Part shown: in pieces, positions 11,558 through 64,000 of the stretch
How positions within the stretch are numbered: the first letter of the stretch is position 1
Layout: each line of letters begins with the position of its first letter
Origin: Shigella phage ESh25
DNA length: 64,000 nt
Sequence record: ON528735
Strand: one strand, 5' to 3'
Program-made: the position numbers and the translations under genes
Notes under the pieces: generated by a model
The model's database searches: none
Told to the model about the DNA's origin: nothing
Seen by the model: the letters and a program-made list of their open reading frames with translations, nothing else

Positions 11558-11586
11558 AACAATCTCCTCATTTAACCAACAAGACT

Positions 11587-11616
11587 ACTATACCATAGTC
11601 TTGTCAGCTTGTAAAC
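11587..11616 (-). promoter_or_regulatory. early promoter (-35 GTTTAC, -10 TATAGT) for dmd
   Basis: Hexamers with 17 nt spacer on minus strand, SD GAGGAG before dmd ATG. Confidence 0.5.
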
Positions 11617-16640: not shown

Positions 16641-17021
16641 TCACTTAGTCAAATTTTTTACACATGAATTATAAGAATTCACTACATACTCCATCGGAGC
16701 ATTTTTACCAGTACGCCATTGGTAATTATTAGCCCAATTAGCCCAAAGCTCGGCGCAGTAGTTTTCAATTTTTTCTTCGCGTGTAATTACATCAGAATTA
16801 CGATATGCTTGAGCAGATTCATCTGGACGAATAGCTTCGTCAAAATTCGCCTGCATTTGTTCGACTGTTTGATTTGGAGCTTCTTTATAACACTTGACAT
16901 TAGGATTATAAAATTTGCTTGAACAGTTTACAATTTTTCCTACATCAGACTGATTTACTACCGGTCCTTGAGCCACACAACCAGTAAGACCTAATGCAAT
17001 AACCAAAATAGCGATTTTCAT
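16641..17021 (-). CDS. lipoprotein (imm.1 position)
   Basis: Lipobox LTGC after signal peptide; track start is TTG inside the leader, real ATG 12 nt downstream. Confidence 0.55.
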   Translation of the reverse strand: MKIAILVIALGLTGCVAQGPVVNQSDVGKIVNCSSKFYNPNVKCYKEAPNQTVEQMQANFDEAIRPDESAQAYRNSDVITREEKIENYCAELWANWANNYQWRTGKNAPMEYVVNSYNSCVKNLTK

Positions 17022-17033
17022 TTCATTCTCCAA

Positions 17034-17110
17034 ATCCGTATCAGTAGTTGATATTGATATAGTACCATGGAAGAACAGTCTTGTAAACAGTTTTGTGAAA
17101 AATTTTTAGG
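17034..17110 (-). repeat. promoter-leader cassette copy A (early promoter + SD)
   Basis: Near-identical to 45385..45460 and 60146..60230: GTTTACA-17nt-TACTAT...tatcaactactgatac...ttGGAGAAnnAAATG. Confidence 0.6.
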
Positions 17111-17175
17111 GAATCCAAAGGGTCCAGAATCATCTGTTTTTCATAAGTATAGATTTATATTACTTGTGTGAAAAA

Positions 17176-17191
17176 GGGACCCGGAGGTCCC
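17176..17191 (-). terminator. intrinsic terminator hairpin
   Basis: gggacccggaggtccc downstream of gene 43. Confidence 0.5.
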
Positions 17192-17204
17192 TAGATTTAT
17201 TCTA

Positions 17205-19979: not shown

Positions 19980-20243
19980 TTAAATTAGTACTATTTGCCG
20001 GGTGAAAATTGTCAATCCATCTGCATTAATTGACTTAACGACTGCAGTAAAATGTTTTTGTTCTGGGTGAACTAGTTTTTGAAATTCTACTTGAAATTTT
20101 AGTTGGAGGTTTTCTGGTAAATCAAAAAGTGTTTCTGTCGCAGAAAGATTATATTTTTCTTTAAGAGACGCCATGTATTCTTGCGGAGTTATAGCAGTCA
20201 TATTAATTACCAATCGTATATTTAGGAACGAGTTTCCATTCAT
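19980..20243 (-). CDS. hypothetical protein between regA and 43
   Basis: 87 aa track ORF; alternative ATG at ~20201 overlapping regA stop gives 73 aa. Confidence 0.35.
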   Translation of the reverse strand: MNGNSFLNIRLVINMTAITPQEYMASLKEKYNLSATETLFDLPENLQLKFQVEFQKLVHPEQKHFTAVVKSINADGLTIFTRQIVLI

Positions 20244-22835: not shown

Positions 22836-23719
22836 TTCAATTTCCTATTTACATAATAGTTAGACCAGGACCGTACAGCACCCTGATAAGATTCGTCGTT
22901 AAACCCATTAGCTACTGCAATTTTACGAAATTTATTATAACTTGGTTTTCCGTAAGCATGCCATAAAGATTTTAATTCATCTTCATGTTCAATCCAAGTT
23001 CCTCTAGCTTTAGATTTTCTAAATTTTGATTTGAATTCCGGTAAATTATTTCTAACAGTTGCTTGAATTGAAGCTCTCTGTCTTCTTTCAGCATTATTCC
23101 ATAATTCTTTTTGAGATTTAGAAATTTTTGATCTTACACTTTCTGAATTCATTATATCACTAAACTTTTTAGCATAACTACAATCAAGATATTTCAATTT
23201 CATCTTATTTGAGAGTTTAAGCTTTTTCTCATCGGTCCAGTGATTCTTCATTGAATTAGATATTTTGTATTTTACTTCAGAACTATGTTTGTAACCTTTA
23301 CGAATACCGACATACTCAGGCGTAATTTCAGATTGCGAAAGCTTTACAATTTTTCCAGTTAAAACATTTTTATATGTTCCATATCCTTTAGCACCAATTA
23401 AAGTATTTTCATCTGCGTATGCTTTATTAAAATATTTTATATTACTTTTTGCTTTAACTTTTAATTGAAAAAATCTCTCCAATTTTCTTGGATCTAATAT
23501 AGTTTCAGCTAAAATTTTGACGGTATATTTAGTGGTTTTAATAAGTTCAAAATATTCATCGCTATAACTCGATGACACGCTTCCAGTATAAATCTTTCCA
23601 GCTGAATCAATTATATTTGTTCCATCGAAAATTGCGTTAATTTTTGAACCTATATAATAACACGGAAAAATATTTTTAGCTTCCCGCTCTGGAAAGCTAA
23701 TAAGATATACTAAATTCAT
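22832..23719 (-). CDS. GIY-YIG homing endonuclease (Seg-like)
   Basis: 295 aa; N-terminal VYLISFPE...CYYIGSK motif; C-terminal repeated basic Ser/Lys motifs (NUMOD-like); inserted between 45 and rpbA. Confidence 0.7.
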
Positions 23720-24105
23720 TTATTAAACTCGGCCACAATTGTTTCCGCAACAATTTGAGCAGCAACAATTAGACGTTCATCTGCATTACCACAATAATCA
23801 TCTTCAAGGCGTTCACCACATGAAGTCATAATAAATTTAGCACCGGCGTTTAGGGATTCTGTAGTATGTTTGCGCATTAGTTCAATCCATTTATTACTTA
23901 CTTCACGATCGATAGCTTCATAATACGCATGACGAGCAGGTGCAGATTTAATTTTGTTCTGAATAACTTCCATTGCGTTATCAGAAAGAGACAAAACCCA
24001 TGCTCGACGAATTTTATTTTGGTTTTGTGGATTTGATTCAGAACGCACGTGTTTTGGCTGAATATCTTTTACATCAACAGTATAATTCACAGTAATTTTA
24101 GTCAT
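23716..24105 (-). CDS. rpbA: RNA polymerase binding protein RpbA (probable)
   Basis: 129 aa; T4 synteny and size. Confidence 0.65.
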
Positions 24106-27683: not shown

Positions 27684-28883
27684 TTTTGTAATAATGTCAA
27701 ACTGTTCTTTAAAGCAGAAGCTTGAATCTTGGTGCTGATACAAAAATTCATATGCTTTTTCTCGCTCACGGTCATAAAGAGCTCGGTCAGATGACAGTTC
27801 TTTAATACGTTCAAATGTTGATTCCATATCATTTTCATCAAACCAAATGATACCGCTATCATGCGAGGTCAAAGGAGTATTATCAACACGGAATTTTAAA
27901 TTTTCGCCAGTAGATTTCCAAAATACCGGAATTGTTCCACATGCACCAAGCTCGAGATGAGTATATTCTAAAGAGCGCTGTAGATATTTTTTATCCAACT
28001 TACTCAACTGATAACCAAAACCGGATTTACTCATACGTTCAAGCATTTCGCTATTTACATAACGGTCAAGAATTTGCGTTGGCAAATTAGGAGCAATTTT
28101 AATTTGGTCTACTTGATGAAGACGATAATACTCGTATGGAATTCCTTTTTCTTTAATAGGAATGAACGCTGGAGAACGTTCCAGACCTTCCATAATAGTA
28201 CTTAGTCCTGCAGGTTTAAGATGTTTTTCGTGAAAATCAAACATCTGATAAAAACCTTTCCATGTAGTCGTACGACCAATCCAACGGTTGATATTCATAT
28301 TAATTTCAGAAACATCTTTCCAATAGGTTGATCGAACTTTCGCAATATCCATAGGAGGCTGAAAGTTATATACGGTCGGTGCTTCTTCAATATCATCAAA
28401 CAGAGAAACTGTTTCAGGATACCATTCTTTCATCAGAACTTTATTAAAATCACCATTATCAGAATGGCTAAAAATAACATCAGCTCGACGAACAGTTTCT
28501 TCTAATCCCAAATTTCGACGCAAAGAAAGAGAAGAATGGTCATGCTGATAAACTACAACACGAACAGAAGGTTTAATGTTATCAATAATTTTTTTATAGT
28601 TATTAATAGTGTCTTCTTCAACCGAAGTAGCAGGAACTGAATTGATAATTAGAATATCACAATCATTTACCAGCTTAAGTGTTTTATCGTATTCTTTTGC
28701 CAATAAAACCGGAATTGAAAATGATTTATAATCATGCGCGCAATTACGAGTAAATGATTTATCTTTAGCATAAACCAAAGTCACTTCATGACCATTTTTA
28801 ATAAACCAATCACGTTGCTCGAGTGAGAATTTTGTTACACCACAACCTTCAAGACCTCGAGCCATAAAAATACATACTTTCAT
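27681..28883 (-). CDS. agt: DNA alpha-glucosyltransferase
   Basis: 400 aa; sequence recognised as T4 alpha-gt. Confidence 0.93.
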   Translation of the reverse strand: MKVCIFMARGLEGCGVTKFSLEQRDWFIKNGHEVTLVYAKDKSFTRNCAHDYKSFSIPVLLAKEYDKTLKLVNDCDILIINSVPATSVEEDTINNYKKIIDNIKPSVRVVVYQHDHSSLSLRRNLGLEETVRRADVIFSHSDNGDFNKVLMKEWYPETVSLFDDIEEAPTVYNFQPPMDIAKVRSTYWKDVSEINMNINRWIGRTTTWKGFYQMFDFHEKHLKPAGLSTIMEGLERSPAFIPIKEKGIPYEYYRLHQVDQIKIAPNLPTQILDRYVNSEMLERMSKSGFGYQLSKLDKKYLQRSLEYTHLELGACGTIPVFWKSTGENLKFRVDNTPLTSHDSGIIWFDENDMESTFERIKELSSDRALYDREREKAYEFLYQHQDSSFCFKEQFDIITK

Positions 28884-28935
28884 TTAATATCCTCATTGTT
28901 TTGGTTTATTTTACCAAAAATTTATAAAGCAATAT

Positions 28936-30377: not shown

Positions 30378-30455
30378 TTTCACCTCTTAGCTCAATTCAT
30401 AGATCTATTATATCATAATATTTGAAGATCTATCTTAAAGCATAGAGGATATCAG

Positions 30456-30725
30456 TTATCTAAGTAAACAGTATGCTTGGAATACTTTTTCCATCATCTT
30501 TTTAAATTCATGAATATCTATATAATGACTAGTTAGATCAGCATGATATAAAAAGTCTAAAAACTTTTCATGTGTACTAACATATTCACTTTCATTTAAT
30601 TCAGAAACATGGCTTTCCCAATATCCAACACCAGTCTTATTTGGGAAAAATGAAATTTTCATGTATTGGTCAACATAGAAAATGCCATAATTTTCAATAG
30701 TAATAGAAATATTAATAAATTTCAT
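30456..30725 (-). CDS. hypothetical protein
   Basis: 89 aa ORF. Confidence 0.45.
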   Translation of the reverse strand: MKFINISITIENYGIFYVDQYMKISFFPNKTGVGYWESHVSELNESEYVSTHEKFLDFLYHADLTSHYIDIHEFKKMMEKVFQAYCLLR

Positions 30726-31991: not shown

Positions 31992-32285
31992 GATCGCAAA
32001 TCATGCGTTTATGTAACTTGAGTATAATATAGCAAACTTCAAAACTATTTACATGAGTAACACGAACAGCATTACCATTAATGAGATAATACTGTCCCTT
32101 TTTAATTTCTTTATCAACCACAACCATATCAAATCCTCAAAGGCAATTCATATGTTAATAATACCACGGTTTGAACTTGTTGTAAACAACTTTGTGAAAA
32201 ATATTTTAGGGAATGACAAGAAGGGAACGATAGCTTAGAATGGTAATATACAGAATGCGAGAAAGAAAGGCCCAGAGGGCCCGTC

Positions 32286-32609
32286 TTAATCTTCTATGAT
32301 ATCTCTATCATATCCAAGTGAAATGAGAGTTTCTTTGAAGTGTTTAATGTTCTTTTGTCTAGAATCATTAATGAAAATGACAGGATACCGAATATTAAGA
32401 GATGTGAATCCGGCGCGTTTGGCAAGAGATACAATCAGTGGACGATCATACTCAATCTTACCATTATTAGTAAGAACTTTATAAAAAGTAAAAGGAGCAT
32501 TGAGCTCCTTTAGAAGTTTTGTAACTGATTGACATCCAGGACAACGACCTACTTCATCTGGAATTCCATAGACTTCAATCTTATTCTTTAAGTTCGAGTT
32601 TTGTTCCAC
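32286..32609 (-). CDS. nrdH: NrdH-like glutaredoxin/thioredoxin-fold protein
   Basis: CPGC redox motif; lies 5' of nrdG/nrdD as nrdH does in T4; 150 aa track ORF starts at GTG with implausible N-terminus, so start placed at an internal GTG; start uncertain. Confidence 0.45.
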   Translation of the reverse strand: MEQNSNLKNKIEVYGIPDEVGRCPGCQSVTKLLKELNAPFTFYKVLTNNGKIEYDRPLIVSLAKRAGFTSLNIRYPVIFINDSRQKNIKHFKETLISLGYDRDIIED

Positions 32610-32892
32610 GAGAAATAATTCCTTGGTAAGCCCAATAAGGAGGATTAACAGAATCCTCACCAGAGTTTTCTTCAGGAAAATAAACCTGGATAACGAAGCC
32701 GGATTCATCAAAGGTAAAATAAACCGTAGGCAGTTCACCTAACAAATCGGCACGAGCGTTGATTTCTTCGAGGTCTTGTTCACGTCCAGTCCAGAAGCTT
32801 GGGTTCAGACTACATTCATAGAAATAATAGTCATTACCGAACATATCAAAACCATTCCAACTCTCTACTACATACCGCTCAAAACTAATCAT
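32581..32892 (-). CDS. hypothetical acidic protein
   Basis: 103 aa ORF. Confidence 0.45.
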   Translation of the reverse strand: MISFERYVVESWNGFDMFGNDYYFYECSLNPSFWTGREQDLEEINARADLLGELPTVYFTFDESGFVIQVYFPEENSGEDSVNPPYWAYQGIISRGTKLELKE

Positions 32893-33226
32893 AATTAATC
32901 CTTTTTATCAAGAACCGCATTCAGCTTGTTAGTAATTTTATCCAGACGCTCATTGAACTCACTAGAAGATAAGCCCTTTTCTGGAGAAATTAAACTAATC
33001 ACGAAAAATATAGCAATAAAAGGAATAAGGAAAATAGCTCTCCAACTGCCATAAACAGAAAGAATGTTACAGTTGTAAGAAAATCAGCTAAACCTTTACG
33101 AAATTTATACATATTTACCCTTAATTAATTAACCAAGCATTGATAAGCACTAAACTATATTGCGAATAAAATTCTGGACCAAAATGAAAAATCATATCAT
33201 TTATAGTATCCATAATGTAATTCAAT

Positions 33227-33697: not shown

Positions 33698-34526
33698 TTA
33701 TATATTTCCAATTATAGCCTTCAACACTTTTACGTTCGCCATTTAAACATTTTAAAATATTTCCTTTGCTAGAAATATTAAAATATTTTGCTGCGTCTGG
33801 TATATAATTAAATGTTTTTAAAAGAACACCATCTTTATATGCGCCAAATAAATTAAGAGTATATTTTTCTCGAAGACGCTGATGTTTCCTTTTCATAACC
33901 TCAGGATTTGCATACGCCAACTTCAATGAATTTCTGTGTTTTTCTTTTACTTCAGGTTTTTGCATTGCTAACTTAGTTAGCCTGGAAATTTTATTTCTAA
34001 CTTCGTCAGTTTTCATTGCATTTGACAAATTTAATAAAGTTTTATTTCTAACTTCAGGTTTTTGCATTGCTAACTTAGTTAGTTCTCTATGTCTTTTTCT
34101 AAAATCGTCATCCTTCCATATATTTTTCGATAATTTTGACATAGAGCGGTGAAATAATTCCTTTTCACTGGAATACAATTTAAAAATTTCATCCAATTCA
34201 TCCGCATTAAATCTATCGGTATTCGAGTTTATCATTCTATGAAAGGCATAACACATTTTACTATTGCTTGTTTTAGCTAAATAGTAATGAGCTAACGCAT
34301 GGTCATAATATGACAAATTAACAATATTCCATTTATCTGTTTTATATTCAGGAAATATAGATTTGGGAAGCACGTGATGTGCTTCCGTTTTTCCTTTTAT
34401 TTTAGGATTATTATAATTTTTTGTTATCAAATCAACATATGACAATAGTAAATCATTATTTTCTTCAAATATTAAAGCTAATTTATCATTCACAAAATCG
34501 CAAGGATAAAATCTATCATAATTCAT
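33687..34526 (-). CDS. HNH homing endonuclease (Mob-like) fused to a duplicated nrdG 5' end
   Basis: 279 aa; HHVLPKS...N...H motif; first 14 residues MNYDRFYPCDFVND parallel nrdG MNYDRIYPCCFVNG. Confidence 0.7.
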   Translation of the reverse strand: MNYDRFYPCDFVNDKLALIFEENNDLLLSYVDLITKNYNNPKIKGKTEAHHVLPKSIFPEYKTDKWNIVNLSYYDHALAHYYLAKTSNSKMCYAFHRMINSNTDRFNADELDEIFKLYSSEKELFHRSMSKLSKNIWKDDDFRKRHRELTKLAMQKPEVRNKTLLNLSNAMKTDEVRNKISRLTKLAMQKPEVKEKHRNSLKLAYANPEVMKRKHQRLREKYTLNLFGAYKDGVLLKTFNYIPDAAKYFNISSKGNILKCLNGERKSVEGYNWKYINEL

Positions 34527-36340
34527 TGGTGTTTAACCCTATGCATGATTTCTTTATTTTTGCCAAGATTAAATCCGCGCTCGTTCGGATTTCCCAAATA
34601 ACCACATGTTCTTCTTATTGTGTTCATCTTTTTAGGATCAGTTTCTCCACAAATAGAACAAACAAATCCGTTTTCAGTAGGAGTCATTTCATGGGTACTT
34701 CCGCATGTAAAACACTTATCTACTGGCATATTAACACCAAAATAATCTAAATGCTGTGCAGCATAATCCCACACGGCCTCAAGACCTTTTAAGTTATTTT
34801 TCATATCAGGAAGTTCAACATAAGAAATGTGACCACCTGTCGCAATGAAATGATATGGCGCTTCACGAGAAATCTTTTCAAACGGAGTAATATTTTCTTC
34901 TACTGAAACATGGAAACTGTTAGTGTACCAGCCTTTATCAGTAACATCTTTTACGCTTCCATATTTTTCTGTATCGAGTTTACAGAAGCGATAACAAAGG
35001 TTTTCAGCAGGAGTCGAATATAAACTAAAAGCAAACCCAGTTCTTTCAGTCCACTGTTTAAGACGAGCATTCATTTTAGTTAAAATTTCTTGTCCAATAT
35101 CACGACCGACAAGAATATTCAATTCATGAATACCAATGTATCCTAAAGACACTGAACTTCTACCGTTTTTAAATAACTCAATTATGTCGTCATCAGGTTT
35201 AAGACGAACCCCGAATGCACCTTCTTGGTAAAGAATAGGAGCAACAGTCGCTTTAACTCCTTTTAAGGAACTAATTCTACACATCAAAGCTTCAAAACAT
35301 AAATCCATTCGTTCATTGAACAATTCGATAAATTTCTGTTCATTGAACTGTGTTCCAATATAAGAATCTAATGCGATACGAGGAAGATTCAGTGTTACAA
35401 CACCGAGATTATTACGTCCATCAAGAATTTCATTGCCAGTCGAATCTTTCCATACGCTCAAGAAACTACGACAACCCATTGGAGAAACAGGAATAGATGA
35501 GCCAGTGATAGCTTTATTGTTCTTAGCTGAAATAATATCAGGATACATTCTTTTGCTTGCGCACTCTAAAGCAAGTTGCTTAATGTCGTAATTCGGATCG
35601 TCTTTATAAAGATTAACGCCTTCTTCAACGAACATAACAAGCTTAGGGAAAATAGGAGTTATCCCATCACGACCAAGACCTTTAATACGATTTTTCAGAA
35701 TTGCTTTCTGAATCATTCGTTCAGTCCAGTCAGTTCCCGTACCAAATGTAATTGTTACAAAAGGCGTTTGTCCGTTTGAACTAAAGAGAGTGTTTACTTC
35801 ATATTCATAAGCTTGGAATGCATCGTATACATCTTTTTCTGTTTTAGATTGAGCATAATTTAACGCATCAGCGATTTGCCATTTTTCTGCATCCTCAATA
35901 TGTTTTGCATAGGTGCGTTTAACATAAGGAGAAAGTACTTTATCTACATTCGCAAAAGTCGTTCCGCCGTATTGGTGAGAAGCAACCTGTGCAGTAATTT
36001 GTGCCATAATTGCAGTAGCAACGCCAATTGATTTAGGAGTTTCAATCTGTGCATTACCAAGCTTAAATCCGTTCTCAAGCATTCCTTTTAAATCTACTAA
36101 ACAACAATTAGTAAATGGAAGAGCAGGGGAATAATCAATATCATGGAAATGAATAATTCCGCTTTCATGCGCTTTCATAATAAAAGACGGGACCATATTT
36201 TTGGCAATGTGTTTAGACACAATACCAGCCATAAGGTCCCGTTGAGTTGGAAAAACACGAGAATCTTTATTAGCATTCTCGTTTAAAAGGTCTTTATTAG
36301 TTTTATGAATCAATCCTTCAATTTCTTTTTCAATTGTCAT
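34523..36340 (-). CDS. nrdD: anaerobic ribonucleotide reductase NrdD, intron-less
   Basis: 605 aa continuous ORF with glycyl radical region and C-terminal Cys cluster. Confidence 0.95.
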   Translation of the reverse strand: MTIEKEIEGLIHKTNKDLLNENANKDSRVFPTQRDLMAGIVSKHIAKNMVPSFIMKAHESGIIHFHDIDYSPALPFTNCCLVDLKGMLENGFKLGNAQIETPKSIGVATAIMAQITAQVASHQYGGTTFANVDKVLSPYVKRTYAKHIEDAEKWQIADALNYAQSKTEKDVYDAFQAYEYEVNTLFSSNGQTPFVTITFGTGTDWTERMIQKAILKNRIKGLGRDGITPIFPKLVMFVEEGVNLYKDDPNYDIKQLALECASKRMYPDIISAKNNKAITGSSIPVSPMGCRSFLSVWKDSTGNEILDGRNNLGVVTLNLPRIALDSYIGTQFNEQKFIELFNERMDLCFEALMCRISSLKGVKATVAPILYQEGAFGVRLKPDDDIIELFKNGRSSVSLGYIGIHELNILVGRDIGQEILTKMNARLKQWTERTGFAFSLYSTPAENLCYRFCKLDTEKYGSVKDVTDKGWYTNSFHVSVEENITPFEKISREAPYHFIATGGHISYVELPDMKNNLKGLEAVWDYAAQHLDYFGVNMPVDKCFTCGSTHEMTPTENGFVCSICGETDPKKMNTIRRTCGYLGNPNERGFNLGKNKEIMHRVKHQ

Positions 36341-43411: not shown

Positions 43412-43939
43412 TTATGCGAGTACCGTCTTTAACCGTTCTTCAAACTTCCGAAGAGTATTTTGGCGTTCAGCTCTTTGCTTTTTGTAAGTTTCAATACGCT
43501 CTGAAATGAGAGTATATCGTTCATTTACTGATTCTTTCATAAAATCAGGAATTTCACGAGAAGCTTTAATCTCGTCAAATTTATCAATAACAACTTGCTC
43601 TTCAGCAATTAAGTTATCATACATCAAAATATCTTTCTTGATGAACTCAATATCTTCTTGAGTTACACGAGATAATTTAGATGCTTTATCCTTTTTGTAC
43701 TGTTCGTTAGTATCACGAGACCAGTGTAATGTACGATTTTTATTCGTATTCTTGTAAATTTCTACAATACCAATCTCATCGATAATAACGATCCAATTCC
43801 AACGGGATTTGTAAATTTGTCCTCCATCAACAGTGATTTCACCTCCGATTGAGATGTCATTAAAGAACTTGCTTTGTGCTTCTGATTTAAATTTACCATC
43901 GTTGTAATTTACCAGGTTGAAAATATCTTTAGCATTCAT
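43412..43939 (-). CDS. hypothetical protein
   Basis: Track ORF trimmed to MNAKDIF...; the first 20 track codons lie inside a promoter cassette. Confidence 0.55.
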   Translation of the reverse strand: MNAKDIFNLVNYNDGKFKSEAQSKFFNDISIGGEITVDGGQIYKSRWNWIVIIDEIGIVEIYKNTNKNRTLHWSRDTNEQYKKDKASKLSRVTQEDIEFIKKDILMYDNLIAEEQVVIDKFDEIKASREIPDFMKESVNERYTLISERIETYKKQRAERQNTLRKFEERLKTVLA

Positions 43940-44010
43940 TTTCTGTTCCTCCGTAGTTGATAGTTGTATAGTACCACAGAGGAACGGTCTTGTAAACAAC
44001 TAAAAGAAAC
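43940..44010 (-). repeat. promoter-leader cassette (second type)
   Basis: Shares ...tatcaactacGGAGGA... leader with 63597..63660 and the cassette in 63925..64000. Confidence 0.5.
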
Positions 44011-44314
44011 TTCTTTCACAATTTTTTCCACTGAACCAAGCGCTCACTGCTTTCTTAGTCTCAGGAGCAGTGTTATCCATAAACCATTCAAAGGCAGCCT
44101 TTTTATGATTCTGGAGGGCTTCTCGGGCTTTAATCTGCTCACGGTCTATTAACACTAACATATGAGCCTTTCTTGTCACCATGGGCTTCTTATGATTTTT
44201 TGAATACTCCCAATCATTTGTCCATCGCATCGTTGTTGCGAACTGAAATACTGCTTCTTTAATTTTAGTTTCATAAATTTCACGAGCCTTTGAGTATAAC
44301 ATCATTACCTCCAT
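44000..44314 (-). CDS. hypothetical basic protein
   Basis: 104 aa ORF. Confidence 0.45.
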   Translation of the reverse strand: MEVMMLYSKAREIYETKIKEAVFQFATTMRWTNDWEYSKNHKKPMVTRKAHMLVLIDREQIKAREALQNHKKAAFEWFMDNTAPETKKAVSAWFSGKNCERSFF

Positions 44315-44403: not shown

Positions 44404-45372
44404 TTATTTCAGAAGAGTAACCTCAGCGATTTCTTCCCAACCGTTTTTGTCGGTCATAATAAAGTCAGCAAGATAAAGAGCAGTACGCAGTGAAACATTG
44501 CGTAAACGATTAACATTGACTTTCATCCATGATAATGCTTTATAAGTTTCTTCATCAGAAAGACCGCGCTTTTGCATCATGTCAGTTGAAAGAATAACAT
44601 CTTCAACCCTGACCATAATTTCTTCATTAGCGTGAACACCCAAATCCAAATAAACTGAGCGGGACACTAATGCTTGTAAATGTGGAGCAAGTTTAGTACC
44701 ACGGTCTAATTCGCGGTCAATGTCAACGTTTGTGATAAAAACAATCGTTCCTTTAAATTCAAACTCACGCTCAATGCCTTTTTCTTCTAAATAAGAAGAT
44801 GCAGTGCTCCAGCAGACTTTACGGGTCTCTCCAGTGTCCAGAGCAGCTTTTAGAAGATTAAGAATGTCCATATCAGAGAAAACATCCACATCATCAATCA
44901 AAAGGACAGAATTCGCTTCACGATTATTCCAAAGCTGCTCATAAAGACCAATACCAGAGATTTTACCGTTAATGCTTTTATATTCAATGTATCCATTATC
45001 ATTTGCTTTATTTAAAGCTTTATCTAAAGAATACGTTTTACCAATACCTGCTGCACCAGAGATAATTAATGAACGAATGTTTCCGTTAATAATACCATTC
45101 GTCATCATTCCCATAACATTAAATCTTTTATTAATGCGGGTTTTCATATCTTCATATGATTCTTTAACTTCTTCAACTTTTACACCATCATATGAAATGT
45201 CTGATTTGTAAACCCAAACACCGCGACGTTTACCGTCAATTTCAACAAAAACTTTACCATCTCCTTGTGCATCTACCGGAGCATTATCAGGGAACCACTC
45301 ACCTAAGAGTTCAAAAGTTCCAGAGATTTCTTTACCGAAGTAGATACCCTTATTAATAGTTACAGTTTTCAT
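44404..45372 (-). CDS. AAA+/P-loop ATPase
   Basis: Walker A GAAGIGKT and Walker B LLIDDVD; track TTG start trimmed to ATG. Confidence 0.65.
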   Translation of the reverse strand: MKTVTINKGIYFGKEISGTFELLGEWFPDNAPVDAQGDGKVFVEIDGKRRGVWVYKSDISYDGVKVEEVKESYEDMKTRINKRFNVMGMMTNGIINGNIRSLIISGAAGIGKTYSLDKALNKANDNGYIEYKSINGKISGIGLYEQLWNNREANSVLLIDDVDVFSDMDILNLLKAALDTGETRKVCWSTASSYLEEKGIEREFEFKGTIVFITNVDIDRELDRGTKLAPHLQALVSRSVYLDLGVHANEEIMVRVEDVILSTDMMQKRGLSDEETYKALSWMKVNVNRLRNVSLRTALYLADFIMTDKNGWEEIAEVTLLK

Positions 45373-45384
45373 TTTATTCTCCAA

Positions 45385-45460
45385 ATCCGTATCAGTTGAT
45401 AGTTGTATAGTACTATAAAGCTTTATGCTTGTAAACCGTTTTGTGAAAAATTTTTGAAAT
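45385..45460 (-). repeat. promoter-leader cassette copy B
   Basis: See 17034..17110. Confidence 0.6.
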
Positions 45461-45466
45461 AAAAAA

Positions 45467-45484
45467 GGGAGCCCGAAGGCTCCC
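45467..45484 (-). terminator. intrinsic terminator hairpin
   Basis: gggagcccgaaggctccc. Confidence 0.5.
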
Positions 45485-45486
45485 TA

Positions 45487-46500: not shown

Positions 46501-46970
46501 TCAGCCTTATATTCAATAACAGGACATACTTTAGCTTTACGAGCTTTTAAAAATTCAACGATAACCGATTTCTTGGGTTGAATAGGAGGTAAACCTTTAT
46601 ACGCCCTATCAATATTTTCTACGTGTAAAGCATAATCCTTTTTCCATTTATAATCTTTATATTTTTCACGCAAATGTGCAGGAATAACAAATGAACCGAT
46701 AATAAGTAAAACAACCAAAAGCGCAAGTATAAATGCTGATGGAAGAAGAGTCCATAAACTACCGAAAATAAGCCAACGTTGTAGGCTTTCTGCACAAATA
46801 ATTGTTAGACCTGCGAGTATAGTACATCCGAAAAAAGAAACGAAAAATGTAGGGATAACAATAGACCAAAAGTATGCACACAGTGTCTTAGGTCGTTTCC
46901 ATTCGTCGTTAAACAGTTTGAATAATTTATAGTGCCAAGAGTTTTCATTAATAATCATAATTATAATCAT
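46497..46970 (-). CDS. membrane protein (multi-pass)
   Basis: 157 aa with several hydrophobic helices; ATGA coupling to the nucleotidyltransferase gene. Confidence 0.5.
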   Translation of the reverse strand: MIIIMIINENSWHYKLFKLFNDEWKRPKTLCAYFWSIVIPTFFVSFFGCTILAGLTIICAESLQRWLIFGSLWTLLPSAFILALLVVLLIIGSFVIPAHLREKYKDYKWKKDYALHVENIDRAYKGLPPIQPKKSVIVEFLKARKAKVCPVIEYKAE

Positions 46971-47488
46971 CCTTTCATTGAAGGTGTAACAGTTGTTAAA
47001 TACTTAATCATAGCCTCAGCTTCTGATTTTGATAATGAAATTTCTCCATTGTTTTGACGAATAGAAATAAAATCCGGATGACGGTCACCACCAGCTTTTA
47101 AAACACACATATAAGTATCAGTTTCATCTTCAATATTTGAAATGATTGAAGCAGTTCCACATGAATGCGGTTTTTGATAAATCAATACAGCTTTTCTTCC
47201 GCCATTTGACTGTTCATAAACTTTTAATACATCAAACAAATCACTTCTTTTATCAATAGCTAAAATGTTATTTTCATCTTCAACGTTAAATCCTTCGGAT
47301 ACTTCATAAAGTGTTACCCATAAATCGCCAATATCAATAACAGCGTTCACTTTTCCATGACTTTCAAGAGCATGACAAATTTTCTTGATTTCGTCATAAC
47401 TCATTTTAATAATATCATCTCCTTGAATAAGAAAGATGTCATTTTTAAATTCAACACGAATTAAACCACTTCCACTTGAAATAAACAT
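46967..47488 (-). CDS. hypothetical protein, paralog pair member
   Basis: 173 aa; C-terminus ...SKSEAEAMIKYLTTVTPSM similar to next ORF. Confidence 0.5.
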   Translation of the reverse strand: MFISSGSGLIRVEFKNDIFLIQGDDIIKMSYDEIKKICHALESHGKVNAVIDIGDLWVTLYEVSEGFNVEDENNILAIDKRSDLFDVLKVYEQSNGGRKAVLIYQKPHSCGTASIISNIEDETDTYMCVLKAGGDRHPDFISIRQNNGEISLSKSEAEAMIKYLTTVTPSMKG

Positions 47489-48224: not shown

Positions 48225-48387
48225 TACATACTCCTTTGAACCATATCAATAATGTTATTCACCAGATTATAAGTAAACATTGGGTAATTATATTGAATCA
48301 TCACATACACAACAAACAAAACTTTCATTCTCTTCTCCTTGGCAGTTGACAAGATTACTATACCATAACCTTGCCAACTTGTAAACC

Positions 48388-55533: not shown

Positions 55534-55950
55534 TTAAATGTAAATATTTTTGCCGTAATACTTATACCAGTGTGGCTTCATTAAAATTTTTTCATCGAGT
55601 CGTTGTTGACTCAACTTAATAGCTGATTTGCATGGATTATAATCATTTTTCCATTCTACTGGAATATCGCTGATGTCAGGAACTTCAGTATCTTTTATAC
55701 TGAACCCGCGTTTTAAGCATTCCGTTATAATGTCCGATTGACGCTTTCGCAAAAATTCTAACTTATCGTAAAAGAAAGTAACATGACCAGAACCTAAAAT
55801 AAATTTAGAAGATATTTTAAAATCTTTAACGCGCTTACCGTTTGCCACATGCTTACGAACTATACCAAAAACACGCGGCAATTCACGGTATTCTGCGATT
55901 AAATGTTGATCAGCAAGTTCAGATACTAAAGTCAAATTAATACGAGTCAT
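55534..55950 (-). CDS. denV: endonuclease V (pyrimidine dimer glycosylase)
   Basis: 138 aa; recognised as T4 DenV. Confidence 0.9.
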
Positions 55951-55975
55951 TTTATCCCTCCAAGTAACTGTGAAT

Positions 55976-56005
55976 ATACTATCACAATTCTAGGAGAAAG
56001 TAAAC
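55976..56005 (-). promoter_or_regulatory. early promoter for denV
   Basis: GTTTAC -35 and TAGTAT -10, then SD GGAGGG. Confidence 0.5.
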
Positions 56006-56009
56006 AACT

Positions 56010-56540
<531 letters not shown>

Positions 56541-59869: not shown

Positions 59870-60133
59870 TTATTTCATATTATTGAAATATTCTTCTGCG
59901 ATTTCGTCGTTATCATGGTAAACTTTAGAAGACAGTTTAACATAACTTTCAGCAGTGAACATGTTAATCACAACCTTTACAGTATACCACTGACCGTCTT
60001 CATTGCCCATTACCGCATAAGTTTCAAACATCGGATGATCAGGACCGATAACTTTAATATCATTCACTGTACGACCGAAATCTTCTGAAACACATTTCAT
60101 AAAGAAGTTGAACAGTTCGCCGTAATTATCCAT
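59870..60133 (-). CDS. hypothetical protein
   Basis: Track TTG start trimmed to ATG (MDNYGELF...). Confidence 0.45.
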   Translation of the reverse strand: MDNYGELFNFFMKCVSEDFGRTVNDIKVIGPDHPMFETYAVMGNEDGQWYTVKVVINMFTAESYVKLSSKVYHDNDEIAEEYFNNMK

Positions 60134-60145
60134 TTCGTTCTCCAA

Positions 60146-60230
60146 GTTGTTTTCTGTATCAGTAGTTGATAGTTGTATAGTACCATGGAAGAACAGGGAT
60201 GTAAACAGTTTTGTGAAAAAATTTTTAAAA
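60146..60230 (-). repeat. promoter-leader cassette copy C
   Basis: See 17034..17110. Confidence 0.6.
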
Positions 60231-60343
60231 AGTTTTAGGGAATTCTAGGGTCAGGAGGGGCAATTAAAAGATAGGATAATATATTATAAAGGGTAGAAAC
60301 TAAATGATGCCTAGAGAGGCCCGGAAAGGCCTAGATACCAAAA

Positions 60344-60367
60344 AGCCCCAACCTTTTGGTCGGGGCT
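60344..60367 (-). terminator. intrinsic terminator hairpin (8 bp stem)
   Basis: agccccaaccttttggtcggggct. Confidence 0.55.
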
Positions 60368-60374
60368 AAGAATG

Positions 60375-60848
60375 TTATTTGATTTGTTTAGCAGACCAAA
60401 TGTGGTCTTTAATAATTTTTTGGATGTCTTCAACATACTCTAGGTCATGAGCATGTGGGTTATCTTTGAAACTATAAGCACGAGCTAGCTTTTGGCCTTC
60501 AGTTTTGATTACTAAAAGCTCTTTAAGGATAGCTTCATATTTAGAGATAATTCCTTTAACAATATTTTTTTCTTGTGTAGTTTTAGGGTCTGCTTTAGGA
60601 GCAGGTTTACCCGAAGCCTTTGCAAAAGCAGCGCCAGTAGCAACCAAACTTTTCCAGGCCATACTAACTGCATTCCCTGTAAATCCTTCGGCTTTCATAT
60701 CACGAGCAAATTGGAATCGTGATTCATCGGAAGCATCTTTATAGGAATATTTACCCGCGGCAATGGCTGCTTTTGCGACAGCTTGAATTTCGGTGCTAGA
60801 TGCTTCATTTAACACCGCTTCATTTAAAAATTGAGCATATGATTTCAT
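60375..60848 (-). CDS. protein with capsid-targeting-like N-terminus (candidate internal protein)
   Basis: 157 aa; N-terminus MKSYAQFLNE resembles the T4 internal-protein targeting sequence MKTYQEFIAE; Ala/Lys-rich. Confidence 0.5.
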   Translation of the reverse strand: MKSYAQFLNEAVLNEASSTEIQAVAKAAIAAGKYSYKDASDESRFQFARDMKAEGFTGNAVSMAWKSLVATGAAFAKASGKPAPKADPKTTQEKNIVKGIISKYEAILKELLVIKTEGQKLARAYSFKDNPHAHDLEYVEDIQKIIKDHIWSAKQIK

Positions 60849-60898
60849 CTTATTTCCTGTTTTAATTCGTGGTTTTAATATACTTATTTATACCAAAA

Positions 60899-60922
60899 AG
60901 CCCCAACCTTTCGGTCGGGGCT
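60899..60922 (-). terminator. intrinsic terminator hairpin at end of tRNA operon
   Basis: agccccaacctttcggtcggggct, near-duplicate of hairpin at 60344. Confidence 0.55.
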
Positions 60923-60969
60923 AAGCCTTGCGGCAACCTTGTCGGGGTTCCACCTGCTAAGGCAAGTGT

Positions 60970-61238: not shown

Positions 61239-61314
61239 TGGTCGAGGCAGTAGGAATCGAACCTACGACCTAGGACTTAGAAGGTCCTTGCTCTTCCTTC
61301 TGAGCTATGCCTCG
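61239..61314 (-). tRNA. tRNA-Arg (anticodon UCU)
   Basis: Manual fold: 7 bp acceptor, D and T arms, loop CTTCTAA, encoded CCA. Confidence 0.75.
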
Positions 61315-61318
61315 GATT

Positions 61319-61393
61319 TGGCGGACGTGATAGGATTCGAACCTATAACCAATCGCTTAACAGGCGATCGCTCTGCCATTGAGCTACACATCC
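61319..61393 (-). tRNA. tRNA-Asn (anticodon GUU)
   Basis: Manual fold: loop CTGTTAA, GGTTCGAAT T-loop, encoded CCA. Confidence 0.7.
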
Positions 61394-61397
61394 AAAT

Positions 61398-61484
61398 TGG
61401 TGGGGAGTGGTGGAGTCGAACCACCCGAGTCGCAATGACAATGGATTTACAGTCCACACCGCTACCTCTACGGGATAACTCCCC
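61398..61484 (-). tRNA. type II tRNA-like, possibly tRNA-Tyr (GUA)
   Basis: 87 nt; acceptor GGGGAGT/ACTCCCC, T-arm GGTGG-TTCGACT-CCACC, long variable arm, candidate loop CTGTAAA; D-arm irregular. Confidence 0.45.
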
Positions 61485-61493
61485 AAATTAATT

Positions 61494-61568
61494 TGGTGGC
61501 CCTGGGTGGAATTGAACCACCATCTGGCGATTATGAGTCGCTTGCTTGAACCTTCCAGCTACAGGGCC
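61494..61568 (-). tRNA. tRNA-Ile/Met type (anticodon CAU)
   Basis: Manual fold: loop CTCATAA, encoded CCA. Confidence 0.75.
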
Positions 61569-61569
61569 T

Positions 61570-61645
61570 TGGTGCTGATTGACGGAATCGAACCGCCGAC
61601 CTTCTCATTACAAGTGAGTTGCTCTACCTACTGAGCTAAATCAGC
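61570..61645 (-). tRNA. tRNA-Thr (anticodon UGU)
   Basis: Manual fold: loop CTTGTAA, encoded CCA. Confidence 0.75.
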
Positions 61646-61650
61646 AAAAC

Positions 61651-61740
61651 TGGCGGAGGCGATAGGATTTGAACCTATGAGTCGCCGGAGCGACTGCCGG
61701 TTTTCAAGACCGGTGCATTAAACCACTCTGCCACGCCTCC
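61651..61740 (-). tRNA. tRNA-Ser (anticodon UGA), type II
   Basis: Manual fold: long variable arm, loop CTTGAAA, encoded CCA. Confidence 0.75.
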
Positions 61741-61743
61741 AAA

Positions 61744-61751
61744 TATTTATA
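61744..61751 (-). promoter_or_regulatory. possible late promoter TATAAATA at segB 3' end
   Basis: Exact 8-mer on minus strand overlapping last segB codons, a few nt 5' of tRNA-Ser; could be chance in AT-rich DNA. Confidence 0.3.
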
Positions 61752-62355: not shown

Positions 62356-62401
62356 ATCAGTCCCTAATAAAGAACTGAGCGTCTCACGACGAGTCATAAA
62401 T

Positions 62402-62475
<74 letters not shown>

Positions 62476-62480
62476 AAATT

Positions 62481-63418: not shown

Positions 63419-63596
63419 CTTTAGAAATTTTATCCATAACGATAGCGATTAAACCAATTAAAAATGCTACTACAAGCGAAAACACATTTTCTGCTGTAGT
63501 TAATAATCCGCATATAAATCCAACAAACATTGAAAAACTAAAAGCAGAAGCAGAAATTGCAATAGCAACATTTCGAATTAATTCACAGCGTTTCAT
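63411..63596 (-). CDS. small membrane protein
   Basis: Track ORF trimmed to MKRCELIRNV...; two hydrophobic helices. Confidence 0.45.
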   Translation of the reverse strand: MKRCELIRNVAIAISASAFSFSMFVGFICGLLTTAENVFSLVVAFLIGLIAIVMDKISKGE

Positions 63597-63660
63597 TTTA
63601 TTCTCCTCAGTAGTTGATAGGGTAATAGTATCACTACTAAAACCCCGTGTAAACAACTTT
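63597..63660 (-). repeat. promoter-leader cassette (second type)
   Basis: GTTTACA-17nt-TACTAT...tatcaactactGAGGAGAAtaaaATG; partner of the cassette in 63925..64000 and related to 43940..44010. Confidence 0.5.
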
Positions 63661-63666
63661 GTGAAA

Positions 63667-63924
63667 TTATTTTAAATCTTCTAATCGTTTCTTCATCTTA
63701 GAACCATTTTTAGCGATTTCTCCTGCGTCAGAGCATAATGCTAAAAGTGCTTTAACTTTAGTTTGGTCTCCTTTAAAAGACGAAGGATCGACTGCAGCAG
63801 CAAGTTCTTTAATACGAGAGAAAAGACGCTCAGCTTCAGCTAAAGCCATTCCAAGCTTTACTTCCATACCATGAGAAGATTCAGTGATAATAGTTTCTGT
63901 AGCAAACTCTTTATAAGTTTTCAT
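63667..63924 (-). CDS. candidate internal protein with capsid-targeting-like N-terminus (IPI-locus position)
   Basis: 85 aa; N-terminus MKTYKEFATE resembles MKTYQEFIAE; sits just past the tRNA cluster where T4 has ipI. Confidence 0.5.
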   Translation of the reverse strand: MKTYKEFATETIITESSHGMEVKLGMALAEAERLFSRIKELAAAVDPSSFKGDQTKVKALLALCSDAGEIAKNGSKMKKRLEDLK

Positions 63925-64000
63925 TTTTATTTTCCTAATTAATTTTGATGAGGTAATAGTATCACTACCTCATCAGTGTGTAAACAACTTTGTGAAATTA
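63925..64000 (-). promoter_or_regulatory. early promoter plus leader for the IP-like gene
   Basis: GTTTACA...TACTAT hexamers and SD before ATG 63924. Confidence 0.5.

What the first reader, a model, noticed from the sequence alone, without database searches (positions are those of the whole stretch)
17034..17110. Three near-identical promoter-leader cassettes scattered through the window
Copies at 17034..17110, 45385..45460 and 60146..60230 share an early promoter (GTTTACA, ~17 nt, TACTAT), a conserved leader (...caactatcaactactgatac...) and the SD and start context ttGGAGAAnnAAATG. Each is preceded by a terminator hairpin and drives an unrelated gene (a lipoprotein, the AAA+ ATPase, a small protein). 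The ORF track begins these genes at an in-leader TTG, which gives artefactual shared N-termini MEN(E/K)M. Such hairpin-promoter modules have been described in T4-type phages as mobile regulatory cassettes that mediate gene shuffling.
Basis: partly seen in the sequence, partly recalled or inferred. Interest (0 to 1): 0.55.

Follow-up and report, generated by a model that had tools for sequence, protein, structure and literature searches.

The report
Repeated T4 early promoter–leader cassettes
The three look-alike segments are real copies of a known class of strong early promoters with attached 5' leaders in a T4-type phage; related genomes gain and lose genes next to them, so the finding is correct but ordinary.

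Summary
The window is a Tequatrovirus (about 96% identical to T4 and collinear with it). All three copies lie on the minus strand and align over about 100 nt, from the A/T-rich UP region to the start codon, at 70-76% pairwise identity. Shuffled sequence gives no such matches. They drive the homologues of T4 imm.1, nrdC.10 and e.8. The same cassettes sit at the same loci in T4 and in about 550 phage records, at 6-9 places per genome. The window holds at least five full or partial further members.

Each has a UP element, -35 GTTTACA, a TGn (lost in one copy), -10 TACTAT, an unstructured leader and a Shine-Dalgarno context that matches the published RegB/S1 cleavage site (GGAGAAUAAAA).

The terminator hairpins are real. 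They are unrelated to one another, lie 30-138 nt upstream and are not part of the repeat.

Related genomes carry gene insertions or deletions bounded by these cassettes at the imm.1 and nrdC.11/nrdC.10 loci, and the window differs from T4 in the same way at the internal-protein loci. The crossover points are scattered, which suggests homology-driven exchange.

This is the T4 early-promoter / PeSL class already described (Arbiol 2010; Comeau 2014). Novelty is low.

The parts
17175..17192 (-). Terminator hairpin after gene 43 (AGGGACC-TCCG-GGTCCCT followed by a T run), 87 nt upstream of the -35. Not part of the repeat.
17019..17114 (-). Cassette 1 (P17088), in transcription order: distal ATTCCCTAAAA 17104-17114; UP/TTTTTCACAAAACT 17089-17102; -35 GTTTAC 17083-17088; TGn and -10 TACTAT 17059-17064; leader 17034-17058; RegB-like GGAGAATGAAA 17021-17031; ATG 17019-17021.
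16641..17021 (-). imm.1 homologue (126 aa, DUF5481, lipobox LTGC). The true start is ATG 17021; the ORF-list TTG at 17033 is an artefact.
45466..45485 (-). Terminator hairpin after the nrdC.11 homologue (UUCG tetraloop plus T6), 30 nt upstream of the -35.
45370..45462 (-). Cassette 2 (P45436), in transcription order: UP ATTTCAAAAATTTTTCACAAAACG; -35 GTTTAC 45431-45436; -10 TACTAT 45407-45412 (TGn is mutated to TAG here; T4 has TGG); leader 45385-45406 (3-nt deletion relative to the other two); perfect RegB/S1 site GGAGAATAAAA 45372-45382; ATG 45370-45372.
44404..45372 (-). nrdC.10 homologue (322 aa, sub-threshold P-loop/AAA matches). The TTG at 45384 is an artefact.
60344..60367 (-). Terminator hairpin (3' end of the rnaC region), 138 nt upstream of the -35. 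It is one arm of a 36-nt direct repeat (60335-60370 and 60890-60925) that flanks an inserted ORF.
60131..60243 (-). Cassette 3 (P60206), in transcription order: ATTCCCTAAAA 60233-60243; UP with an 11-nt insertion; -35 GTTTAC 60201-60206; TGn and -10 TACTAT 60177-60182; leader 60146-60176 with a 6-nt AAAACA insertion; GGAGAACGAAA 60133-60143; ATG 60131-60133.
59870..60133 (-). e.8 homologue (87 aa, no Pfam match). The TTG at 60145 is an artefact.
63593..63673 (-). Further full member, P63654 (trna.4 homologue): AATTTCACAAAGTTGTTTACA..TGATACTATtaCCCTATCAACTACTGAGGAGAATAAAATG. Homology to T4 ends at 63672, at its 5' edge.
63915..64000 (-). Partial member P63985, cut by the window end. It drives an 85-aa internal-protein-like gene (63667-63924) that replaces T4 ipI.
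43937..44016 (-). Partial member P43997 (nrdC.8 homologue). It shares the spacer, TACTAT and ACAACTATCAACTAC, but has a different UP region.
32140..32214 (-). Partial member P32187 (55.6 homologue). It shares ATTCCCTAAAA and TTTTTCACAAAGTT upstream only.

Best explanation
These are paralogous copies of one subclass of T4-type early promoter, each fused to a 5'-UTR.

How each copy is built. An A/T-rich UP element, -35 GTTTACA, TGn and -10 TACTAT recruit unmodified host sigma-70 RNA polymerase right after infection. The transcript probably starts at the A of cTAtcaac, 7 nt after the -10 (inferred). It has a short, unstructured, C/A-rich leader and a GGAG Shine-Dalgarno in the context GGAGAAYRAAAUG. 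That context serves translation initiation and matches the RegB/S1 endonuclease site that inactivates early mRNAs a few minutes into infection (inferred from the published consensus).

Why the copies are so alike. The core (-35, -10 and the start-site motif CTATCAA(C)) is under selection. It survives in other genera beside genes that have diverged to 32% protein identity. The rest (spacer, distal upstream element, 3' leader) is shared because of common descent and ectopic exchange between copies. This produces the mosaic pattern.

The side effect. About 50-100 nt of repeated homology at gene starts gives the phage's own recombination system places to delete, insert or swap promoter-led gene modules. 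This is the PeSL model. The cassettes are not autonomously mobile.
For: Anatomy:
- Searches give the promoter elements and the alignment.

Conservation and expression:
- The same cassettes sit at orthologous T4 positions: -35 at 27080, 55384 and 70696.
- 551 phage records match, at 6-9 places each, nearly all Tequatrovirus.
- T4 imm.1, nrdC.10, e.8 and nrdC.8 are classed early at both RNA and protein level (PMC9697503 supplement).
- T4 early promoters are described as UP/-35/TGn/-10 promoters with extra consensus regions (PMC2988021).

RegB site and leader:
- The published strong-site consensus is GGAGRAYARAA, with T4 optimum GGAGAAUAAAA (PMC3014915, PMC1702504).
- P45436 and P63654 match it exactly. 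P17088 and P60206 match 10 of 11. T4's e.8 copy matches exactly.
- The leaders are predicted to be unstructured, with z-scores about 0.

Shared descent rather than convergence:
- The spacer, which has no recognised sequence-specific role in polymerase binding, is 15/18 identical between P17088 and P60206.
- Three separate features (TTTCACAAA, TACTAT, CTATCAAC) co-occur in the same 4 of 19 promoters.

Selection on the core:
- Mosigvirus imm.1 (32% amino-acid identity) keeps GTTTACa-N17-TACTAT-N4-CTATCAACTAC.
- Mosigvirus nrdC.8 and Dhakavirus e.8 keep the same core.

Recombination at the cassettes:
- imm.1 locus: 23 of the 25 best-matching relatives show a split match about 245 nt longer. In the one examined (D5505) this is an extra 78-aa ORF between the cassette and imm.1, with the junction at ATGAAAAT.
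- nrdC.11/nrdC.10 locus: at least 4 allelic states were sequenced, and inserts of about 260 to 1100 nt fall into about five size classes. Inserted modules are bounded by duplicated terminator+UP+-35 on one side and by ..ttggagaataaaATG on the other.
- The window/T4 leader at nrdC.10 (ctgatacggattt) is derived. It equals the imm.1-locus leader, whereas Mosigvirus and the insert-bearing Tequatroviruses keep aaacaaatg.gaaatt.
- Window P56005 is a chimera of T4's ipIII promoter and the denV leader, with ipII and ipIII absent.
- ipI is replaced between P63985 and P63654.
Against: - There are no transcript 5'-end, promoter-activity or RegB-cleavage data for this phage. These functions are inferred from T4 orthologues and published consensus sequences.
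- Cassettes account for only a minority of rearrangements. Only 2 of about 15 window-versus-T4 breakpoints lie at early-promoter cassettes; most of the others involve mob/seg/intron genes.
- The e.8 cassette shows almost no junctions: 511 of 534 records are contiguous across it.
- The imm.1-locus indel is not flanked by two cassettes. It uses 8-nt microhomology between two translation-initiation regions.
- P45436 has lost its TGn in this genome.
- The reason the start-site motif is conserved across genera is not explained.
Confidence: 0.85

Rival explanations
1. Pure functional convergence. The copies look alike only because each independently approaches the optimal early-promoter and ribosome-binding consensus, with no common descent or exchange between them.
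For: All 19 scored minus-strand early promoters share a weak extended consensus beyond the hexamers: tttcA.AaA.tt GTTTAC .. tgTGg TAttAT a...cTAt.a. The core motifs recur in other genera beside diverged genes.
Against: The spacer is 15/18 identical between P17088 and P60206. A 27-nt block is exact in P60206 and matches P17088 with 3 mismatches, against 0.00 expected. ATTCCCTAAAA sits at the same offset in three copies. The independent features are linked in the same promoters. From the -10 to the start codon, the nrdC.10-locus copy and the imm.1-locus copy of D5505 are identical apart from one 3-nt indel.
Confidence: 0.07
2. Dedicated site-specific recombination sites (integron attC-like), recognised by a phage recombinase that moves gene cassettes.
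For: Inserted modules at nrdC.11/nrdC.10 are bounded by repeated cassette sequence. The PeSL authors raised the idea of a helper protein (PMC2839356).
Against: Junctions fall at different places in the cassette:
- at the ATG;
- after TACTATacaactatcaa and before ttggagaataaaATG;
- inside the spacer;
- at about +12 to +20 of the leader;
- about 18 nt upstream of the -35.
No conserved crossover core or inverted-repeat recombinase site lies within the unit. The copies are positionally stable across about 550 records.
Confidence: 0.04
3. The conserved leader is a structured cis-regulatory RNA (attenuator, riboswitch, thermosensor) or encodes a small RNA.
For: A 20-40 nt 5'-UTR is conserved in front of unrelated genes.
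Against: Minimum free energies are -2.5 to -4.5 kcal/mol with z-scores of -0.10 to +0.16 against shuffles. The only small hairpin (UAUCA..UGAUA) is destroyed by the 3-nt deletion in P45436. No Rfam family matches there.
Confidence: 0.03
4. A distinct regulon. The TTTCACAAA upstream element and/or the start-site motif AUCAACUAC is read by a specific phage factor, which sets this subclass apart from other early promoters. Candidates are an Alt-dependent boost or the still-unexplained early-promoter shut-off.
For: The start-site motif is conserved across genera beside a 32%-identical protein and at nrdC.8. TTTCACAAAGTTGTTTACA is conserved in the Dhakavirus e.8 promoter. Reviews state that some early promoters respond to Alt and that the shut-off mechanism is not understood (PMC2988021, PMC3014915).
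Against: No factor or differential kinetics is known for these particular genes, which are simply classed 'early'. The motifs grade into the general early-promoter consensus. RB69 uses a different repeated subfamily.
Confidence: 0.1

Closest known systems
Bacteriophage T4 early promoters ('uber' UP/-35/TGn/-10 sigma-70 promoters; Hinton 2010 review, PMC2988021)
   Same: -35 GTTTAC(A), 17-nt spacer, TGn, -10 TAnnnT, A/T-rich UP element and additional consensus regions. The three cassettes are the direct orthologues of the T4 promoters upstream of imm.1, nrdC.10 and e.8, and those genes are early in T4.
   Different: Nothing essential differs. This genome's nrdC.10 copy has lost the TG of the extended -10, and the imm.1 copy has two extra substitutions after the -10.
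PeSL (promoter-early stem-loop) cassettes of T4-type phages (Arbiol et al. 2010, PMC2839356; Comeau et al. 2014, PMC4122927, which includes the PST/T4 pair)
   Same: A composite intergenic unit: an AT-rich region, an early promoter, and an SD plus ATG at the 3' end, with a stem-loop nearby. Homology spans about 100 bp. The units are associated with gene indels or replacements, with crossovers at several points inside the unit.
   Different: In these three copies the stem-loop is a separate upstream terminator. Its distance varies (30-138 nt), its sequence differs between copies, and it is not within the repeat. Other promoters in the window (P11616, P48386, P63654, P63985, P56005) do have inverted repeats spanning the -10, read by eye. 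Mini-circle formation could not be tested.
Conserved promoter elements flanking the hypervariable internal-protein loci of T-even phages (Repoila et al. 1994, as cited in PMC2839356 and PMC4122927)
   Same: Family members P63985 and P63654 flank a replaced ipI gene. P56005 is a promoter chimera left where ipII and ipIII are absent.
   Different: The three copies in the finding are at other loci (imm.1, nrdC.10, e.8), not at the IP loci.
RegB/S1 endoribonuclease target sites in T4 early translation-initiation regions (Durand et al. 2006, PMC1702504)
   Same: An intergenic, single-stranded GGAG followed by an A-rich tract. GGAGAATAAAA in P45436 and P63654 equals the T4 optimum. The other two copies match 10 of 11 positions.
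   Different: Cleavage at these particular sites was not verified here. The list of tested sites in that paper's figure is not held in the library. Only nrdC.8 is named in the text, as moderately cleaved.
Morons and integron cassettes (gene units that carry their own promoter and terminator)
   Same: Inserted modules at nrdC.11/nrdC.10 arrive with their own terminator and promoter. The modB-like gene in ACG-C40 is an example.
   Different: No integrase or attC is present. Exchange appears to be homology-driven between the repeated promoter cassettes themselves.

Membership tests
T4-type early (sigma-70) promoter | -35 GTTTAC/TTTACA, 17-nt spacer, -10 TAnnnT | tested here: met
   All three copies: TTTACA-17-TACTAT.
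T4-type early (sigma-70) promoter | Extended -10 TGn | tested here: met
   Present in P17088 and P60206. Absent in P45436 of this genome (TAG), but present (TGG) in the T4 orthologue.
T4-type early (sigma-70) promoter | A/T-rich UP element upstream of the -35 | tested here: met
   AAAAATTTTT(T)CACAAAAC immediately upstream in all three copies.
T4-type early (sigma-70) promoter | Transcription immediately after infection by unmodified host RNA polymerase | not testable with these tools
   Indirect only: the T4 orthologous genes are classed early at RNA and protein level.
PeSL cassette | Early promoter with an AT-rich upstream region, and an SD plus start codon at the 3' end, in an intergenic space | tested here: met
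PeSL cassette | Stable stem-loop within or directly adjoining the element (just upstream of the promoter in the PST/T4 type) | tested here: inconclusive
   G+C-rich hairpins exist, but they lie 30, 87 and 138 nt upstream, are unrelated in sequence, and are outside the repeated unit. No G+C-rich hairpin shared by the three copies lies inside the repeat.
PeSL cassette | Association with insertions, deletions or replacements between close relatives, with junctions inside the element | tested here: met
   Met at the imm.1 locus and the nrdC.11/nrdC.10 locus, and by family members at the IP loci. Not seen at e.8.
PeSL cassette | Recombination between neighbouring copies yields excised mini-circles | not testable with these tools
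   Needs inverse PCR on infected cells.
RegB/S1 cleavage site | 11-nt GGAGRAYARAA in an intergenic region of an early transcript | tested here: met
   P45436 matches exactly. P17088 (GGAGAATGAAA) and P60206 (GGAGAACGAAA) match 10 of 11 positions, with G instead of A at position 8.
RegB/S1 cleavage site | The site is single-stranded | tested here: met
   The predicted folds leave GGAG unpaired in P17088 and P45436. In P60206 only a weak 3-bp helix, absent from the centroid structure, touches it. MFE is -2.5 to -4.5 kcal/mol and z is about 0. This is a prediction only.
RegB/S1 cleavage site | RegB-dependent cut between G and A in vivo | not testable with these tools
   Needs primer extension in regB+ and regB- infections.
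Autonomous mobile element (IS, MITE or homing element) | Variable genomic positions, terminal inverted repeats or target-site duplications, or an associated transposase or endonuclease | tested here: not met
   The positions are orthologous in T4 and about 550 records. No terminal inverted repeats were found. The flanking genes are ordinary phage genes.

The most novel reading that the evidence does not exclude
The part of the cassette that survives across genera next to strongly diverged genes may be a specific regulatory signal, not merely a strong-promoter consensus. That part is the start-site motif (C)TATCAACTAC, giving a 5' end AUCAACUAC, sometimes together with TTTCACAAAGTT upstream of the -35. 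It could mark a subclass of early transcripts for a phage factor. Candidates are the still-unexplained shut-off of early promoters, Alt-dependent stimulation, or 5'-end-dependent RNA fate. Together with the RegB-optimal SD, it would form a portable 'express hard, then silence' module that any gene acquires by recombining behind it.
Probability: 0.12. Interest if true: 0.5.

Novelty: already known. Interest (0 to 1): 0.18.

Why it matters
For annotation: several genes here are given false N-termini (MENEM, MENKM and longer ones) because ORF callers start at TTG codons inside the leader or promoter. The true starts are the ATGs 6 nt after the GGAG tract.

For phage genomics: the locus set gives clean, sequence-level examples of how repeated promoter/5'-UTR cassettes let T4-type phages add, drop or swap early genes without disturbing their neighbours. 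One example is a modB-like ADP-ribosyltransferase module inserted between nrdC.11 and nrdC.10 in phage ACG-C40.

It also shows that the same ~13 nt serves as both Shine-Dalgarno context and RegB/S1 site, so a gene recombined behind a cassette would acquire both its expression signals and a predicted RegB cleavage site. None of this changes current understanding.

Tried and rejected
- Structured-RNA reading of the leader: rejected. The folds are no better than shuffles and no Rfam family matches.
- Stem-loop inside the repeated unit: searched for and not found.
- Recent duplication within this genome: rejected, because T4 and about 550 records carry the same copies at the same loci.
- Junction at the e.8 cassette: the one candidate (phage SP21535, match ending in the -35) turned out to be a ~30-nt deletion that removes the UP element and -35. 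It is not a shuffling junction.
- Simple-deletion origin of the window/T4 nrdC.10 leader: rejected. A crossover between the two cassettes of the insert-bearing state would give ...ctatcaaaacaaatgtgaaattggag, not the observed ...ctatcaactgatacggatttggag.
- Technical limit: several fetched loci (L003, L005, L007-L010, L013, L014) never appeared in the script sandbox. RB69 and some relatives were therefore examined with pattern searches and by reading sequence, not with scripted scans.

Full report
**What the window is.** Megablast of two stretches finds about 500 Tequatrovirus genomes at 95-99% identity. The window is collinear with T4 over the stretch compared, T4 25.5-73.6 kb, at 85-98% identity, interrupted by about 15 indel or replacement breakpoints. 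The early genes, and all the elements discussed here, are on the minus strand.

**Checking the observation.** Read on the minus strand, the three segments are as described. Each has an A/T-rich stretch ending in TTTTTCACAAAAC(T/G), then GTTTACA, 17 nt, TACTAT, then (A)CAACTATCAACTACTGATAC(G/A)G, then (A/C)TTTGGAGAA(T/C)(G/A)AAATG.
- In MAFFT alignments the pairwise matches are 81/106, 76/100 and 74/106.
- The long motifs never occur in dinucleotide-preserving shuffles: expected 0.00 against 2 and 7 hits.
- The minus strand carries 20 GTTTAC-N18-TAnnnT promoters, 19 of which could be scored. Among them the three copies are far more alike than typical pairs in the upstream 30 nt, the spacer and the first 20 transcribed nt.

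**Corrections to the observation.**
- The family is larger. P63654 carries all three signature features (TTTCACAAA upstream, TACTAT, CTATCAAC downstream). P43997, P32187, P49198 and P63985 are partial members.
- The copies are mosaics. P17088 shares its spacer (15/18) and a distal ATTCCCTAAAA box with P60206. Its leader, SD and ATGAAAA are those of P45436.
- The G+C-rich hairpins are real terminator-like structures, two of them with UNCG tetraloops. They lie 87, 30 and 138 nt upstream of the -35, have unrelated sequences, and are outside the repeated unit. No G+C-rich stem-loop shared by the three copies lies inside the repeat.

**Genes and start codons.** The cassettes drive the homologues of three T4 genes:
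- imm.1: 126 aa, DUF5481, with a lipobox LTGC read directly from the sequence;
- nrdC.10: 322 aa, with only sub-threshold P-loop/AAA matches;
- e.8: 87 aa, with no family match.

The mechanical ORF list begins each at TTG GAG AA(T/C) (G/A)AA ATG, which gives MENEM or MENKM. T4 annotates imm.1 from the ATG. The same artefact affects the nrdC.8 and trna.4 homologues, whose listed ORFs start inside their promoters.

**How the cassette works.**

*Shown.* All the recognised elements of a T4 early promoter are present: UP region, -35, TGn and -10. The exception is TGn in P45436, where this genome has TAG and T4 has TGG. A review describes T4 early promoters as exactly this UP/-35/TGn/-10 type with further consensus regions (PMC2988021). 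The orthologous T4 genes are early at both RNA and protein level (PMC9697503 supplement). The leaders are predicted to be unstructured, with z-scores about 0, and no Rfam family matches.

*Inferred.* Transcription starts about 7 nt after TACTAT, at the A of cTAtcaac. The published strong RegB/S1 site is GGAGRAYARAA, with T4 optimum GGAGAAUAAAA (PMC3014915, PMC1702504). P45436 and P63654 match it exactly. P17088 and P60206 match 10 of 11 positions, and the T4 e.8 copy is exact. The cassette would therefore supply strong early transcription, efficient initiation, and a built-in site for RegB-mediated inactivation.

**Why the copies are alike.** Two layers can be separated.

*Selection on a core.*
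- In Mosigvirus 'moskry' the imm.1 protein is only 32% identical, yet its promoter keeps GTTTACa-N17-TACTAT-N4-CTATCAACTAC.
- The Mosigvirus p000v nrdC.8 promoter keeps CCTATCAACTACTGGAGG.
- Dhakavirus IME08 e.8 keeps AATTTCACAAAGTTGTTTACA..TACTATagaCCTATCAA.

*Common descent and exchange for the rest.*
- The spacer and the 3' leader are not conserved across genera, yet they are nearly identical between paralogues within Tequatrovirus.
- The independent features are linked in the same promoters.
- RB69 has its own repeated subfamily, GTTTACA..ATAGGACTATGTTATAGTAGTCCTATCAAA, with a stem-loop over the -10.
- The leader at nrdC.10 in the window and T4 (ctgatacggattt) is derived. Mosigvirus and the insert-bearing Tequatroviruses have aaac(a/g)aatg.g.aaatt there. 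The window/T4 version equals the imm.1-locus cassette of phage D5505 from the -10 to ATGAAAA, apart from a 3-nt indel. This points to transfer of sequence between loci 28 kb apart.

*imm.1 locus.* In 23 of the 25 best-matching genomes the match is split and about 245 nt longer. In the one examined, D5505, the extra DNA is a 78-aa ORF between the cassette and imm.1. The window and T4 lack it. The junction is the 8-nt ATGAAAAT shared by the two translation-initiation regions.

*nrdC.11/nrdC.10 locus.* In an evenly spaced sample of the hits, 11 of the 29 near-full-length rows (at least 96% of the query covered) carry inserts of about 260, 480, 620, 740 or 1100 nt. Four states were read:
- window/T4: a single cassette;
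- DalCa and G3F8: cassette, a 49-aa ORF plus a DUF4031 gene, a short promoter, then nrdC.10;
- KAW1E185: cassette, a 66-aa ORF, an RB69-type element, then nrdC.10;
- ACG-C40: two tandem copies of terminator+UP+-35, the first driving a modB-like gene.

*e.8 locus.* This locus is stable. 511 of 534 records are contiguous across it, and the one apparent break is a small promoter deletion.

*Within the window relative to T4.* P56005 is a chimera of T4's ipIII promoter and the denV leader, with ipII and ipIII absent. ipI is replaced by another internal-protein-like gene between P63985 and P63654, with homology to T4 ending at the 5' edge of P63654.

*Interpretation of the junctions.* Crossovers fall at the ATG, in the leader, in the spacer and upstream of the UP region. 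They are therefore homology- or microhomology-driven, not site-specific. Only 2 of about 15 window-versus-T4 breakpoints lie at early-promoter cassettes. Most of the rest coincide with mob/seg homing-endonuclease genes or the nrdD intron.

**Comparison with what is known.** The elements are orthologues of known T4 early promoters. [quoted passage not shown] That concept was extended to the PST/T4 pair with the consensus TTTACW-N17-TAYWAT (PMC2839356, PMC4122927). The IP-locus cases match what those papers attribute to Repoila et al. 1994. The only imperfect membership feature is the stem-loop, which here is a separate upstream terminator and not part of the repeat.

**Verdict.** The kind of element is already known, so interest is low.

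The residual open point is why the start-site motif is conserved across genera next to strongly diverged genes. A specific regulatory role for it is not excluded, but nothing here requires one.

Noticed in passing
window 60375-60848 (-), flanked by 60335-60370 and 60890-60925: An extra 157-aa ORF is absent from T4. Its N-terminus (MKSYAQFLNEA) resembles those of the internal-protein genes in the window and T4 (MKTYKEF.., MKTFKEF..). TATAAATA, which matches the T4 late-promoter consensus as I recall it, lies at 60885-60892. The ORF is bracketed by a 36-nt direct repeat (97%) of the rnaC-region terminator hairpin. Here the duplicated flank is a terminator, not a promoter. Shigella phage SP21535 has the same insert.
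   Followed up: partly
window 55925-56065 (-): The promoter P56005 that drives denV is a chimera. It equals the T4 ipIII promoter up to about +15, then joins the denV SD. T4's ipII and ipIII (about 1.1 kb) are absent.
   Followed up: yes
window 63667-63924 (-): An 85-aa internal-protein-like gene (MKTYKEFATETIITE...) replaces T4 ipI. Only the N-terminal ~10 residues resemble IPI. It lies between family members P63985 and P63654.
   Followed up: yes
window 11579-11616 and 48349-48386 (-): Two early promoters share a 38-nt repeat (87%). Their spacers are complementary to the sequence just after the -10 (CAAGACTA..TAGTCTTG), a stem-loop over the -10 as in classic PeSLs. P63654, P63985 and P56005 show similar inverted repeats around the -10. 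These were read by eye and not folded.
   Followed up: partly
window 61239-62641 (-): There are nine tRNA genes (Arg, Asn, Tyr, Met, Thr, Ser, Gly, Leu, Gln) against eight in T4. Asn, Tyr and Met are present; Ile and Pro are absent. Nine is the number reported for Yersinia phage PST. A 275-nt stretch (62067-62341) matches part of T4 segB.
   Followed up: no
window 19984-20202, 22847-23721, 30451-30710, 32586-32909: These stretches have no counterpart at the collinear T4 position (between gene 43 and regA, between gene 45 and rpbA, near 55.1, near nrdH). Similar GGGCCGAAGCCC-type hairpins recur at 19958, 22128, 31302 and 58803.
   Followed up: no
window 28874-28899, 33719-34506, 35802-35805, 46501-47470: The T4 homing-endonuclease gene mobB and the nrdD intron with I-TevII are absent. 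The mobC and mobD regions are replaced by unrelated sequence. These account for several of the larger differences from T4.
   Followed up: no
window 45413-45415 (-): The extended -10 TG of the nrdC.10 promoter is TAG here and TGG in T4 and most relatives. This point change would be expected to weaken the promoter.
   Followed up: partly
L007 (phage ACG-C40) 1225-1710; L009 (KAW1E185) 630-690: At the nrdC.11/nrdC.10 hotspot, ACG-C40 carries an inserted 161-aa gene annotated as a ModB-type ADP-ribosyltransferase, with its own terminator and cassette. KAW1E185 carries an RB69-type promoter element (TAGGACTATGTTATAGTAGTCCTATCAAA), which suggests import from a Mosigvirus-like phage.
   Followed up: partly
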